This document shows positions 48,024 to 57,770 of a stretch of 64,000 bases of DNA, piece by piece. Below the pieces are notes generated by a model that did no database searches, had not been told where the DNA came from, and saw nothing but the letters and a program-made list of their open reading frames with translations. The DNA lies in assembly GCA_012295275.1 (NCBI GenBank), contig CM022671.1:36146001-36210000 (forward strand), written 5' to 3'. The translations under genes were made by a program, and so were the position numbers. Source of the stretch: Chrysomallon squamiferum (Eukaryota > Animalia > Mollusca). The first letter of the stretch is position 1. The number at the start of each line of letters is the position of its first letter.

Positions 48024-48987
48024 TTACTTTAAACGGAGTAACTTCCTGAACGCTCGCCTGAAATCTGGTGAACTGAAATTGTACAGAAACGGGTTTATCG
48101 TTGAGTTGAGGTACGTCATCCAGAACGTCACTGTGTACACGATTTCTGGAACGAGCTTGGGGTTGCTGGCGCTCACGTCGAACACGAAATGGAATGGCAC
48201 CCAGCAAATGATGTACCCAGCAATGACGTAGGTCAAAGTGAGGAAGACTTTTCTCTCGCGTCTCTCTGCCTGTTCGCCGGACTCATTCCTGCTATCAAAA
48301 GAATGCGAGTCTGATGAGGAAAAGGCAGAAGTCAACGACTTCGAGTCTGGAACGGCCAAAAACTTGACAATACTCAACTTTGTCTTCTGCACGCGCGGAA
48401 TGCTCGTTTCGGAACGAATCGCTTGTTTTTCATTCAGCTGTTGGCTTGTCTGTATGTCTGTGCTATCTGAGTAGCCCTGATTTTGATAGGGTAAGTTGTT
48501 TGTAGTCACCAGCGGTTCATCCTGGACGGTGGAGTAAATATTTGTGGCAGACGTTTGCTCTGGAGATGAGGTGAAGCTTTTATTTACCGTGGGTTCTTGT
48601 GCTAAATCTAGTGAAGACACGCTCTCAGCTGGCACCATTTTGTCGCTTGGCACGACTGGATCAGCCGAGTGGTTCGTCTCGCTGGCTCGCCTCACCTCAA
48701 TGACTGGAGGAGTGTCTGGAAAACCAGAGCAAGTAGCATTCACGTCACTCCGTGCGCCTGTTATACACCTGCTCCCTACTGCTCCGATTTTTAGTCTCTG
48801 TTTCATGAACAAATAAACTCGAATGTAACAAAACAAGAGAATCAAACACGAGCCGTGATGGCCGACAGCGGCCACTACGATAACGAATTCTTTGTTTTGA
48901 GACGGTTCCCACTTACACACGTTGGACCGACTGTTTCTCAGTCTGTCAGTTATACACGGGGGCAGCCACAGTATCAACATAACAATC
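48024..48987 (-). CDS. Class A GPCR (biogenic amine/histamine/muscarinic-like), terminal exon encoding TM4 second half to TM7
   Basis: Acceptor TTTTCAG|G at 48988/48987 completes the W4.50 codon; CKWEP (ECL2 Cys), long ICL3, RRERKVF, CWVPFH, WMTYLNSTINPFLY, helix 8 DFRRAF. Confidence 0.92.
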
Positions 48988-49824
48988 CTGAAAATAACAA
49001 ATATACACTTTAATACAGACACAGTATCAACATAACAATCCTGAAAATAACAAATATACACTTTAATACAGACACAGTATCAACATAACAATCCTGAAAA
49101 TAACAAATATACACTTTAATACAGTCACAGTATCAACAGATAAATCCTGAAAATAACAAATATACACTTTAATACAGACACAGTATCAACATAACAATCC
49201 TGAAAATAACAAATATACACTTTAATACAGACACAGTATCAACATAACAATCCTGAAAATAACAAATATACACTTTAATACAGTCACAGTATCAACAGAT
49301 AAATCCTGAAAATAACAAATATACACTTTAATACAGACACTGTATCAACATAACAATCCTGAAAATAACAAATATACACTTTAATACAGTCACAGTATCA
49401 ACATAACAATCCTGAAAATAACAAATATACACTTTAATACAGACACTGTATCAACATAACAATCCTGAAAATAACAAATATACACTTTAATACAGACACA
49501 GTATCAACATAACAATCCTGAAAATAACAAATATACACTTTAATACAGTCACAGTATCAACAGATAAATCCTGAAAATAACAAATATACACTTTAATACA
49601 GACACTGTATCAACATAACAATCCTGAAAATAACAAATATACACTTTAATACAGTCACAGTATCAACATAACAATCCTGAAAATAACAAATATACACTTT
49701 AATACAGACACTGTATCAACATAACAATCATGAAAATAACAAATATACACTTTAATACAGAAACGACATAATCCTGAAAATTACAGATATACATTTAAAT
49801 ACAGACACAGTATCAACATAACAA
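48968..49824. repeat. 53-bp tandem repeat, ~16 copies, whose unit spans the GPCR splice acceptor (33 nt intron + 20 nt exon)
   Basis: Unit ACAGTATCAACATAACAATCCTGAAAATAACAAATATACACTTTAATACAGAC. Confidence 0.95.
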
Positions 49825-49825
49825 C

Positions 49826-49891
49826 AGAGAGAGAGAGAGAGAGAGAGAGAGAGAGAGAGAGAGAGAGAGAGAGAGAGAGAGAGAGAGAGAG
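49826..49891. repeat. (GA)n microsatellite
   Basis: Visible. Confidence 0.95.
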
Positions 49892-51149
49892 TATTCTATA
49901 TAACAGTTATCAGAGAATCATCACTCTTCTACTAAACTGATTTATTCAGTGAGAAAACGTAGTTATTGGAATCTCTCAACGTCTTTTTTCATTTACAGAT
50001 TACATTGCTGTGAGACCGTGATCAGCAACTATTTATTTCCAGATTCCATTTCTTTTCTTTACATCATCTTTTGAGTCAAACATAGTACGAATCGATGTCC
50101 ATCATTAATTACTCTCCCAATCCATGGAAAATGTTACTTGGATTTTACACTAATCAAGCTTATAATTAATGAATTCTTTTTCGTCTTTTTTCCCACCCAG
50201 TTTCTAGGTGTAATTTGATCAGACCCCTGCGGATTTATTTTCTTGGATAAAGTAATTTCTGTAACAGCCTTAATTAAAACTATGTAATATTGTTTTTTTA
50301 TATTAGTGAAAAAAAAATGTGATCTCAGTTTTATTTATAAATTTAACTATGGATTCAGCTACTGTAATATTACATTGTTTATAAATTAATGACAAAGGAA
50401 CAGGATTAAGTTATTCTAAAATTATATTACCCAAAAATTTAACCATGTCAGAGTAACCGGATTCAATTATTACAGTATTACTTTGTTTTTTCGGACTGCT
50501 ATACAAATACTGTTTTCATTTTGTCATTTTTAGGATTTTGTGGCTGTCCGAATGGAATATCAGTCTCTTACTGTCTTTTGTCTTTATTTGTTTATCCCTT
50601 TCCGCCTTTGTTTTCTTTCTCTCTCTCTCTCCCTCTCTCTTTTTATTTTATTTTTTTTTTTTTTTTTTTTTTTTTATTTTTTTTTATTATTCGTCTAGAT
50701 TAAAAATGTATACATATAAGGATAAGTTTAAATGAAGTAAAATAGTGATTAAAGATCAACAGTGTAGTTCAGCAAAGAAAATAATTAGTTTTATTTGCAC
50801 AACATCGTATGCATATTAATTATTTTCAGTGCATTCCGCAAAACGTGACACCTGGTCTGGCTTTTCATCTGCAAAGGAAGCTTTTTTTTTTTTCTTTTTT
50901 TTAATGAAACCACTTAGAACTGATAGCAGTGCCCAGATACTCCATTAGAATCACGCCGGATCAACTTCAGTTACAATTATTCTCAGATGTTAATGACACA
51001 GGATAGTATTAAAAAATACTGACAACAGTAACGAAGATGAACTTTAAACCTGATTACTGATAAATGCCAGATTCAACATTTGCAGGTGATAAGATAAACA
51101 CTTTCGACGACAACGTAACGTGAAAGAGATTGTAAATAAAATAGAACTA

Positions 51150-55136: not shown

Positions 55137-55979
55137 TATTTAGAAGAAATACAAAGAAAAGCATAATGTCAGAAAGCTGGTGAAGTCTCACTACGATGTT
55201 TCTTTAGTTTTGTGTTAGATCTGTACGAGATTACGCACTGCACGATAAAAACGAATTATTATGTGCATTATTTTCTGACGTAAAAAAAAAAAAAAATGTA
55301 CATTATTGACATACACAAGTAATTAGACAACTTAGAAGTCTTAGATGAAACCTCTGTACAAAATTTTCTTTAAAAAAACATCCTTTAATAATGTCACGCT
55401 GTTCACAATATGTCTAATCACAACAAGATAAATAGAAGTTACTTTATTTTCAAAAAGCAACAACAAAAGGAACATAAAATAACTGATTCTGGTATCCTTA
55501 CATTTGTCTGTGGTCCGAGTTACCAGGCAGTGGGGGAATGGATCGTTGATGTGGCGTAATTCATTACCTGTTTTTTATTTAGATTATATTAGCCTGTTTT
55601 ATACCTAGTATACTTTCAGTTTATCTTTCCTTTCGTTCTCTTCAGCAAACGTTATTAATGTTGTTATTGATTTAATTAGTTGTGTCATTTCCAAACAGTT
55701 AGATAACAAGGTGTTCTCTATACGATTTATTCTGGACGCCTGCCAGTTTATTCAGTTTGTTTATTTCTTCTTATTTTGGTTAATTCATAAATTTGGACTT
55801 CAGAACATATATTTTTTTTAATGTAAATTTTCTTTGTAGAAAGTGATTTATTTTTATTACATAAGGCAAAAATAGTTTAACCTATTGTCATAAAAATATG
55901 GATATAAAAATAAAAAATAAACTCGTAATTGTAATTCTGAAACAAACGAGATGGTTTTGTGAAAGATATTTAATTAGCA

Positions 55980-56372
55980 GAGCGAGCGAGAGAGAGAGAG
56001 AGAGAGAGAGAGAGAGAGAGAGAGAGAGAGAGAGAGAGAGAGAGAGAGAGAGAGAGAGAGAGAGAGAGAGAGAGAGAGAGAGAGAGAGAGAGAGAGAGCC
56101 TAAACTCTGAGAAATGTTTTCATGTAGCGTTGATGGTAATGTTTTAGTGAGAGAGAGAGAGAGAATGAAAAGTGATAGTGTGAAAGAGAGGAGATAGAGA
56201 GAAAGAATAAAACGAACGAAAGATAGATAGACAGAGAGTGAGAAAAAGACAGACAGATAGAGAGAGAGAGAGAGAGAGAGAGAGAGAGAGAGAGAGAGAG
56301 AGAGAGAGAGAGAGAGAGAGAGAGAGAGAGAGAGAGAGAGAGAGAGAGAGAGAGAGAGAGAGCCTAAACTCT
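55980..56372. repeat. Two (GA)n tracts each followed by GCCTAAACTCTG (local duplication)
   Basis: Visible near 56098 and 56362. Confidence 0.85.
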
Positions 56373-57324
56373 GGGCAAATTTCTGCAATTTATTTATTTG
56401 GTTTAAACCTCTAATATATTATTTTAAAGTGACAAAAATTCACAGATTAATAAATTTGTCGTCATAAGACTGTTTTATCTCTTACCTAATTTACTTTCAA
56501 TAGTCATGAATTTTAGTGTAATTTGACTGCTAATTATCTAAGAATGCTTCTTATTTTTTTTCTCGAGAATTGTGAGGTTATTTTTTTTTTTTTTTTTTTT
56601 TTTTTTTTCTCAAATATCTCTAATGAACGTAGACAGTAATGTAATGCAAAAGCAAAAAAACAGTAAACAAAAGTAAGTTAATCTTAACAAAAATATAAAT
56701 TGCATGTAGTTTAAACCTTGCTCATCGAGGATGGCATTAGTTGATTATTTTATAAATTAATACTACAGATGTCAAAGCAAATAGATGAAGATTATCTTAT
56801 TTAATACTGTAATGTGAGATTAAATCATTTTCTAAGATGCTAAGTGCAAGGAAGAAAAGAATGACCAGTCAGTGAACAGTAATGATTTATTGTACGTAGA
56901 TTTCTACAGAAGCAGTAAGTCTAGCTTTCTTCATTTACCACATGTTAAATGCCACGACATAGACTACAGCAGCCACAAAACGTATTTTACGTACTACAGA
57001 ACAGTACATTAGTAATGATATTATGCATAACACACGGTGGCTAGACCAATAACAGTTTTCTTTAATGTAGATTCAACGACGCACACCACAATCGACTACA
57101 CCATCATCATCAACAACAGTAACAAAAACATCGCGAAAAATAGCAACAGTCATGACACCAGATATATATGTACATGTATTGTAAATACCACATACTAAAT
57201 CTGTATTCTTTTTGTCATGTCTGTATGCATAATCAATGCCATACACCACCACCACAACAACAAACAAACAAAAAACTTCAACAACAGCAGTAGCAGAAAC
57301 AACAACAACTAGTATTTTACATAC

Positions 57325-57770
57325 CACACAGCCGACAGACCAATGACTGCTTTATTCTTATTGTGGTGTTTTCTGTAGTGAATACTCCACGTCACCGACC
57401 ACAGCCTGTCCACTGAGATAACGAGAAGAGTGAACACAGAGGCGAAAGTCATGCCGTAGTCGAAGAAGATCCAGACGCCGCACATGAACTGTCCAAACGG
57501 CCAGTAGCCAAGTACGTTTTCTATGGTATAAAAACTCATAGCAGTGACGGCCACGGCAATGTCCGTGACAGCGAGGTTGACGATGTAGTAGTTAAAAACG
57601 GTGTGTAGACTTTTCTCCCTGGCTACTGCAAGAAGCACCAGACAATTACCAAACACAGTTATGAAGATTATTGTGTAAAGTCCAACACCGAGAACAATGT
57701 TTGTCCATGGAACAGACGTCGCTGCAGTATCCGACAGTGTATTGTTCAACGTGGCCATCGTCGACTCCAT
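57325..57770 (-). CDS. GPCR TM1-TM4 exon with Asp3.32 (would give 469 aa when joined to the exon at 48987)
   Basis: MESTMATLNNT...GNCLV...NYYIVNLAVTD...YWPFGQFMCGVWIFFDY...SVDRLW...AV-TG|GTATGT; phase-2 donor; no TM5-7 exon found before 48987. Confidence 0.88.

What the first reader, a model, noticed from the sequence alone, without database searches (positions are those of the whole stretch)
48024..57770. Two alternative TM1-4 exons upstream of a single TM4-7 exon: possible combinatorial GPCR
Seen: three intact N-half exons (62792-62341, 57770-57325, 53307-52868) but only two C-half exons (61825-60562, 48987-48024). I found no TM5-7 sequence between 53.3 and 57.3 kb and there is no assembly gap. 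Both N-half exons end in the same phase-2 donor inside the W4.50 codon and fit the 48987 acceptor in frame. Inference: a variable-first-exon/constant-exon layout (as in UGT1A or clustered protocadherins) that swaps half of the ligand pocket onto a common G-protein-coupling half. The alternative is that one exon is an orphan from a partial duplication or deletion.
Basis: partly seen in the sequence, partly recalled or inferred. Interest (0 to 1): 0.8.

Follow-up and report, generated by a model that had tools for sequence, protein, structure and literature searches.

The report
Snail receptor with two front halves
In a likely gastropod genome, two different front-half exons sit before one back-half exon of an amine-type receptor gene; one RNA contig joins the front half that lacks the amine-binding aspartate to it, and the conserved front half likely joins it too, which would let one gene make two receptors with different ligand pockets.

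Summary
The layout is real: three intact TM1-4 exons (NA, NB, NC), two TM4-7 exons (C1, C2), and no C-half remnant between NB and NC. One RNA contig joins NC to C2 at the predicted sites. NC has lost Asp3.32 (to Asn) and Trp3.28 (to Arg), which all 130 motif-bearing homologs keep. NB was not seen in RNA, but only one shallow run holds the locus. NB is still constrained (omega 0.05-0.2, p<0.01) and matches C2 in conservation, whereas NC has diverged fast. Best reading (0.58): the ancestral gene is NB-C2, and NC is a duplicated first exon inside its intron, giving two isoforms by promoter choice. Main rival (0.27): NB was recently orphaned and is partly preserved by gene conversion with NA. The shared splice phase is weak evidence, because this intron is family-wide. 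It is a two-way switch, not a protocadherin-scale array. The NB>C2 junction is the missing test.

The parts
62341..62792 (-). NA: TM1-TM4 first coding exon of the upstream two-exon paralog (keeps D3.32)
   Evidence: not seen in RNA (no X1 contig on the tract it shares with NB)
60562..61825 (-). C1: TM4-TM7 terminal exon of the upstream paralog, long repetitive ICL3, AATAAA at 60520 and 60411
   Evidence: faster-evolving (6 of 46 conserved columns changed)
57325..57770 (-). NB: conserved TM1-TM4 exon with W3.28 and D3.32 (codon 57461-57459); inferred ancestral first exon of the C2 gene
   Evidence: junction to C2 not observed
57409..57515 (-). 107-nt tract identical between NA and NB (TM2 end to TM3), inferred gene conversion
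   Evidence: (permutation p = 1e-4; dS 0.09 inside versus 1.5-2.1 outside)
54787..55142 (.). Small element with 29-nt terminal inverted repeats in the NB-NC interval (Tigger/pogo-like MITE; family name recalled)
52868..53307 (-). NC: diverged TM1-TM4 exon, D3.32N (53004-53002), W3.28R (53016-53014), G1.49S; spliced to C2 in RNA
53308..53411 (-). About 104 nt of 5' leader on the RNA contig, if it is collinear upstream of the NC ATG
48963..49824 (-). 53-bp tandem array (16.4 copies) that repeats the C2 acceptor; 14 upstream acceptor copies each give a stop within 6-9 codons
48024..48987 (-). C2: conserved TM4-TM7 terminal exon (W6.48, W7.40, Y7.43, NPxxY), the only C-half downstream of NB and NC

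Best explanation
NC is spliced to C2 in RNA, and NB is likely a second, alternative first coding exon of the same gene, so the locus would make two aminergic-like class A GPCRs that share TM4b-TM7 and ICL3 but differ in TM1-TM4a. Inferred history: the ancestral two-exon gene NB-C2 was duplicated whole to give NA-C1. Exon 1 alone, with its promoter, was then duplicated into the NB-C2 intron to give NC, which diverged fast and lost the amine-binding Asp3.32 while staying under purifying selection. Transcription from the NB promoter would splice 57325>48987 (8.3-kb intron, skipping NC). Transcription from the NC promoter splices 52868>48987 (shown). NB-C2 is predicted to be a conventional amine receptor. 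NC-C2 is predicted not to bind an amine the classical way, while keeping the TM5/TM6/ICL3 G-protein face.
For: Shown: the NC>C2 junction in a 646-nt RNA contig of run X1; its loose end equals window 52869-52898. Shown: no third C-half or remnant in the window. NB departs from 2 of 51 family-conserved columns, NC from 12 of 51, C2 from 1 of 46; NC versus C2 Fisher p = 0.002, NB versus C2 p = 1. Identity to the nearest named relative, Gigantopelta aegis: NB 80-82%, C2 81.5%, NC 56.5%, C1 62%. Branch omega in a three-taxon codon model: NB 0.20 (p = 0.004 against 1), and 0.05 outside the converted tract (p = 0.007); NC 0.29 (p = 0.0002). NB-NC dS is about 1, so both exons have persisted together for a long time. 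An unconstrained NB stays intact with P = 0.006 at neutral divergence 0.1 in a simple simulation. G. aegis RefSeq has a C2-like C-half model with the accession number next to an N-half model that shares NB's TSVPWT motif (XP_041349582.1, XP_041349583.1), consistent with NB-C2 being the old pair (order inferred from accession numbers only).
Against: NB was not seen in 3 of 3 RNA runs laid; only X1 holds the locus at all, at depth about 4-7, and its contig passes the C2 junction unforked. Conversion with NA can keep the centre of NB intact. A recently orphaned NB would still look intact (P 0.46 at d = 0.015, 0.19 at d = 0.03). The matched-conservation argument is weakened by a control: the presumed NA-C1 pair is also mismatched (1 of 51 versus 6 of 46, p = 0.05). 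In the DNA-like run X2, no contig lay on NB-specific ends or on the unique intron 56735-57054, and an NA-type contig ran unbranched through 57525-57599. The three-taxon codon fit outside the tract is near saturation (62 codons). No promoter was shown for NB.
Confidence: 0.58

Rival explanations
1. NB is a recently orphaned exon. Either its own C-half was cleanly deleted from a three-gene tandem array, or NC has taken over as the only first exon of C2. NB still looks intact because the loss is recent and conversion from NA refreshes its centre.
For: Only NC>C2 was seen. Whole-gene tandem copies are common in this family: several paralogs per chromosome in Pecten, Argopecten and Liolophura. A conversion tract exists. 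An intact ORF survives short neutral times.
Against: There is no remnant of a C-half or its UTR in 4 kb. The loss must fall within about the last 5% of neutral divergence. C2 would have had to stay ancestral (1 of 46) while its sole partner NC changed 12 of 51 columns. NB's unconverted TM1 part is the most G. aegis-like of the three (79% versus 59% and 44% against P0234).
Confidence: 0.27
2. The assembly has lost or collapsed a C-half exon between NB and NC, so these are three ordinary two-exon genes.
For: The interval holds long (AG)n and other simple repeats where joins can fail. G. aegis accession XP_041349584.1 lies between its two N-half models and was not seen.
Against: There are no Ns. 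In X2, C2 is one 1369-nt contig at depth 44, similar to single-copy neighbours at 54-57, so no near-identical second C2 is collapsed there (the tool warns depth is a poor copy number). The C2 search found only one G. aegis C-half model of 176-560 aa against two N-half models.
Confidence: 0.07
3. NB is transcribed but not spliced to C2. It reads into its intron (stop four codons after W4.50) and makes a 4-TM fragment that acts as a decoy or trafficking modulator.
For: An in-frame stop follows the donor (...VWYVKY stop), and AATAAA/ATTAAA hexamers lie 260-520 nt downstream.
Against: The GT donor is intact and in the family position. The hexamers are expected in AT-rich DNA, and similar ones follow NA and NC. 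Conservation of pocket residues D3.32 and W3.28 is easier to explain in a whole receptor.
Confidence: 0.05

Closest known systems
Insect OR/GR loci with tandem long first exons spliced to shared C-terminal exons (Blattella germanica Gr60a-m and five OR genes; PMC6175461, passages read)
   Same: Alternative N-terminal multi-TM first exons on a shared C-terminal part of a 7-TM receptor; some isoforms there are pseudogenic, which is this locus's open question.
   Different: Those are not rhodopsin-family GPCRs (recalled: ion channels of inverted topology). Their variable exon covers most of the protein and there are up to 13 alternatives; here the split is at W4.50 and there are two.
Drosophila OAMB-K3 / OAMB-AS (PMC2650798, passages read)
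   Same: An aminergic class A GPCR whose two isoforms swap a block of transmembrane helices and differ functionally.
   Different: Mirror image: OAMB swaps the last exon (ICL3 onward) and changes signalling. Here the first exon (TM1-4a) is swapped, predicted to change the ligand pocket and keep ICL3.
Clustered protocadherins (PMC8787164, passages read); UGT1A (recalled, not read)
   Same: Variable first exon chosen by promoter and spliced over intervening variable exons to a constant part.
   Different: Many variable exons, stochastic CTCF/cohesin-driven choice. Here there are two exons and no evidence on how the choice is made.
Molluscan/annelid/priapulid aminergic-like receptor family of G. 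aegis XP_041349582/583/585 and Haliotis rufescens XP_048252632
   Same: Same family motifs (FDYGMTFAS, GHHG, CWVPFH, FWMTYLNS) and the same intron inside W4.50.
   Different: Homologs are automatically named muscarinic-, adrenergic- or dopamine-like; no ligand was found for the family. None of 130 motif-bearing homologs has NC's R3.28/N3.32.
Teleost clade III TAARs (PMC4695389, passages read)
   Same: Aminergic-derived receptors that lost Asp3.32 and remain functional.
   Different: They gained Asp5.42; C2 has Val at 5.42 by my count from Y5.58 (alignment), so that route is not used here.

Membership tests
Class A (rhodopsin-like) GPCR | 7tm_1 domain across TM1-7 with N1.50, D2.50, C3.25, D/E-R3.50, W4.50, CWxP, NPxxY | tested here: met
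   both NB+C2 and NC+C2 keep them
Aminergic GPCRs | Asp3.32 (NB, NA) | tested here: met
   aligns to the TM3 Asp of alpha-1A; requirement stated in PMC4695389
Aminergic GPCRs | Asp3.32 (NC) | tested here: not met
   Asn at 3.32 and Arg at 3.28 in the window, in X1 RNA and in X2
Aminergic GPCRs | W7.40 and Y7.43 in TM7 | tested here: met
   C2 FWMTYLNS aligns to alpha-1A FWLGYLNS
Aminergic GPCRs | Activation by a biogenic amine | not testable with these tools
   no ligand data; the best solved relatives span adrenergic, muscarinic, dopamine and histamine receptors at similar scores
Variable-first-exon / constant-exon loci (Pcdh, UGT1A, insect Gr type) | Two or more homologous first exons in tandem with the same splice phase | tested here: met
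   but the phase is family-wide
Variable-first-exon / constant-exon loci (Pcdh, UGT1A, insect Gr type) | A single shared downstream constant part | tested here: met
   (true of this assembly)
Variable-first-exon / constant-exon loci (Pcdh, UGT1A, insect Gr type) | Each variable exon is spliced to the constant part in RNA | tested here: inconclusive
   1 of 2 junctions seen (NC>C2); NB not detected in one shallow holder run
Variable-first-exon / constant-exon loci (Pcdh, UGT1A, insect Gr type) | Each variable exon has its own promoter | not testable with these tools
   contigs cannot show starts; the NC contig ends about 104 nt upstream of its ATG; one TATA-like hexamer 122 nt upstream of NB is not evidence
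Clustered protocadherin-type system | Large array with stochastic CTCF/cohesin promoter choice | tested here: not met
   only two candidate variable exons lie before C2; the choice mechanism was not tested

The most novel reading that the evidence does not exclude
One class A GPCR gene uses promoter choice to put either an Asp3.32 amine-binding half or an Asn3.32/Arg3.28 half onto the same TM4-7 module. It thereby makes a natural chimera pair with different ligand chemistry (cationic amine versus a neutral or anionic ligand, or ligand-independent signalling) and a shared G-protein output. The layout may be shared with vent-snail relatives, where two N-half models sit beside one C-half model.
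Probability: 0.3. Interest if true: 0.75.

Novelty: new variant of a known kind. Interest (0 to 1): 0.52.

Why it matters
Class A GPCRs usually diversify by whole-gene duplication, and their pocket is built jointly by TM2-3 and TM5-7. A gene that swaps only TM1-4a, including the residue that defines amine recognition, would be a natural half-receptor swap: two isoforms with a shared signalling face and different pockets. That would give a clean system for asking how a receptor changes ligand without changing output. Even if NB is an orphan, the locus expresses a spliced, selectively constrained aminergic-family receptor without Asp3.32, unlike all 130 motif-bearing homologs held. It may also bear on annotation: the G. 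aegis relatives are modelled as separate half-genes.

Tried and rejected
No whole genome is held, so copies beyond the window ends are unknown. A candidate acceptor remnant near 55936 that resembles the C1 start scored 26 of 50, no better than unrelated sites at 26-28; rejected as chance. My scan for strong acceptors between NB and C2 returned 0, but it used a strict threshold that I did not calibrate on the true acceptors, so it is uninformative. Runs X3 and X4 held next to none of the C2 words and laid nothing specific; this is no evidence. The missing X2 cover on NB-specific sequence may be the tool's filter and is counted as inconclusive. The metagenome scan gave 2 loci of distant relatives (one gene with more introns, one fragment) that do not bear on the layout. 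The ESM Atlas search with C1 gave only generic 7tm_1 clusters. Trees did not resolve the order of NA, NB and NC (open fork, 82/91 for the group with G. aegis) or the place of C1. Shared-derived counts did not show that NB and NC are sisters (NB+NC 2-3 sites, NA+NC 1-6, NA+NB 1-2 by outgroup), so the exon-duplication history rests on layout and conservation, not on a tree. Earlier-finding look-ups by place and sequence were empty. No fold or complex job was sent, because halves of a split 7-TM pass by likeness. Paper searches for a class A GPCR with alternative TM1-4 first exons listed nothing that matches by title or abstract; the library lacks most subscription papers and supplements were not opened.
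Full report
Observation. On the minus strand the order is NA (62792-62341), C1 (61825-60562), NB (57770-57325), NC (53307-52868), C2 (48987-48024). All three N exons begin with ATG, are open, and end TG|GT(A) in the W4.50 codon; all 6 of 6 joins are in frame; the window has no N. Each exon scores above the 7tm_1 cut-off. tblastn and blastn (its blastn output was partly cut), a family profile over six frames with stops read through, and nhmmer with flanks find no TM4-7 sequence or remnant between NB and NC.

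Family and organism. C2 found 89 homologs among 875 candidates; the best is Gigantopelta aegis, then Haliotis, Patella, Lottia, chitons, bivalves and Priapulus. NB found 78 near-length and 35 longer homologs, again led by G. aegis at 76%. The genome is therefore likely a gastropod close to Gigantopelta (inference). Solved relatives are adrenergic, muscarinic, dopamine and histamine receptors at similar scores, so the ligand is open. The intron position is ancestral: 54 of 85 short family members end exactly at W4.50, and 43 of 54 C-half-only members start just after it. Any paralogous N exon would fit any C exon, so the shared phase does not support a combinatorial design.

RNA. One search with C2 listed 4 runs; X1 (RNA) held 0.90 of the words, X2 (type not on record) 0.34, and X3 and X4 next to none. 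On 47650-49012, X1 covers C2 with 5 contigs at 95-100% identity. One 646-nt contig (depth 6.6) leaves C2 at the acceptor, and its loose end is identical to window 52869-52898, the 3' end of NC. The same contig is the only X1 record laid on the NB stretch; it lies there by similarity, with NC letters and NC loose ends at the collinear offset. NC>C2 is therefore spliced at 52868>48987, in one contig of one run. No X1 contig lies on NB or on the tract NB shares with NA, so neither was detected; at depth 4-7 this cannot exclude a rarer or tissue-specific isoform.

NC versus NB. Among 314 proteins held, 130 carry the family TM3 motif and all 130 have W3.28 and D3.32; NC has Arg and Asn. The Asp aligns with the TM3 Asp of alpha-1A. 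PMC4695389 (passages read) states that mutating Asp3.32 eliminates amine recognition in classical aminergic receptors, and that fish TAARs lacking it use Asp5.42; C2 has Val there by my count. At 51 columns conserved in at least 90% of 24 hand-picked homologs, NA departs at 1, NB at 2 and NC at 12. At 46 such columns in 22 homologs, C2 departs at 1 and C1 at 6. Identity to G. aegis is NB 80-82%, NA 77%, NC 56.5%, C2 81.5%, C1 62%. NC is fast (relative-rate chi2 15-24) but not neutral (omega 0.29, p = 0.0002 over 127 codons; p = 0.06 on the 62 unconverted codons). It keeps N1.50, D2.50, C3.25, DR and W4.50. X1 and X2 carry the same R3.28/N3.32 letters.

Is NB alive? NA and NB share a 107-nt identical run (permutation p = 1e-4); dS is 0.09 in the central 65 codons and 1.5-2.1 outside them, which indicates gene conversion. 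Outside that tract NB still has omega 0.05 (p = 0.007; near saturation), and 0.20 overall (p = 0.004), while NA's omega is not distinguishable from 1. NB and NC differ by dS about 1. A simulated unconstrained NB stays intact with P 0.46, 0.19, 0.07 and 0.006 at neutral divergence 0.015, 0.03, 0.05 and 0.1 (indel rate assumed). NB has thus been part of a working receptor until recently at least, and C2 is the only C-half downstream. C2's conservation matches NB (p = 1), not NC (p = 0.002); against this, the presumed NA-C1 pair is also mismatched (p = 0.05).

Relatives. G. aegis RefSeq holds one C-half-only model (XP_041349582.1) and two N-half-only models (XP_041349583.1, XP_041349585.1), on contigs of the same length. 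Both N models keep D3.32 and fall in one 90% cluster; 583 shares NB's TSVPWT. No full-length G. aegis model and no second C-half of 176-560 aa appeared. Accession 584 was not seen. If it is a C1-like model, the order matches C2-NB-C1-NA and NC is a later insertion; if not, a 2:1 layout recurs. Both readings pair an NB-like exon with C2, but gene order is inferred from accession numbers only. Run X2 behaves like DNA of a relative about 97% identical (39 differences and 3 gaps in 1320 nt). There, C2 is one contig at depth 44. The D3.32 tract is a 113-nt contig at depth 91 that ends exactly where NA and NB diverge (57409), which suggests two D3.32 copies plus NC. However, no contig lay on NB-specific ends or its intron, and an NA-type contig ran unbranched through 57525-57599. 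I count X2 as inconclusive on NB and as weak evidence against a collapsed C2.

Mechanism. Shown: the layout, the NC>C2 splice, the loss of D3.32 in NC, and constraint on NB, NC and C2. Inferred: the NB>C2 splice, separate promoters, the origin of NC by exon-1 duplication (trees and shared-derived sites did not resolve it), and different ligands. I give 0.58 to two alternative first exons, 0.27 to a recent orphan, 0.07 to an assembly fault and 0.05 to a truncated 4-TM product.

Comparison. It works like insect OR/GR loci with tandem long first exons (PMC6175461, passages) and, in layout, like clustered protocadherins (PMC8787164, passages). It is the mirror image of OAMB-K3/AS (PMC2650798, passages). 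It is not a protocadherin-type array: there are two exons and no choice mechanism is shown. Five searches listed no paper on alternative TM1-4 first exons in a class A GPCR, judged from listings only. PMC11886862 on lophotrochozoan class A GPCRs has no main-text occurrence of 'exon' or 'alternative splicing' (term search); its supplements were not opened.

Verdict. A real, partly verified case: a new variant of a known kind, interest 0.52. One junction (57325>48987) decides between a two-pocket receptor gene and an ordinary duplicate with an orphan exon.

Noticed in passing
window 48963-49824: A 53-bp tandem array repeats the C2 3' splice site. Fourteen upstream acceptor copies, most with the same 25-nt context, each lead to a stop within 6-9 codons, yet the X1 contig uses the last one. 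X2 has the same unit, and one contig end runs from the acceptor directly to the (AG)n tract, suggesting a different or shorter array. How the last acceptor is chosen is unexplained.
   Followed up: partly
window 57516-57560 (NB) and the matching part of NA near 62532-62576: The window's NA differs from NB at 8 sites here, 7 of them within 15 nt, but the NA-type contig of X2 has NB letters at these sites (10 differences instead of 18). Conversion tracts differ between lineages, or another paralog outside the window is a donor.
   Followed up: partly
window 54787-55142: A 356-bp element with 29-nt terminal inverted repeats and a short transposase-like start (MDPKKLSAKDSAKKKKW); looks Tigger/pogo-like (recalled).
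   Followed up: partly
window 28507-30283 (-), 33634-36160 (+), 40211-42292 (-): Three neighbouring homeobox genes, each with the homeodomain split before WFQN; Pfam Homeodomain hits in three exons. They look like a lineage-specific PRD-class tandem cluster (class recalled, not tested).
   Followed up: no
window 61034-61216 and 61315-61439: In-frame 21-bp (x8.7) and 30-bp (x4.2) coding repeats lengthen ICL3 of C1 with Ser-rich LEKPSEG-type units.
   Followed up: no
P0307 (Tegillarca granosa, 610 aa): A model with one N-half followed by two C-halves, the opposite imbalance; it may be a fused annotation of tandem genes or alternative last exons.
   Followed up: no
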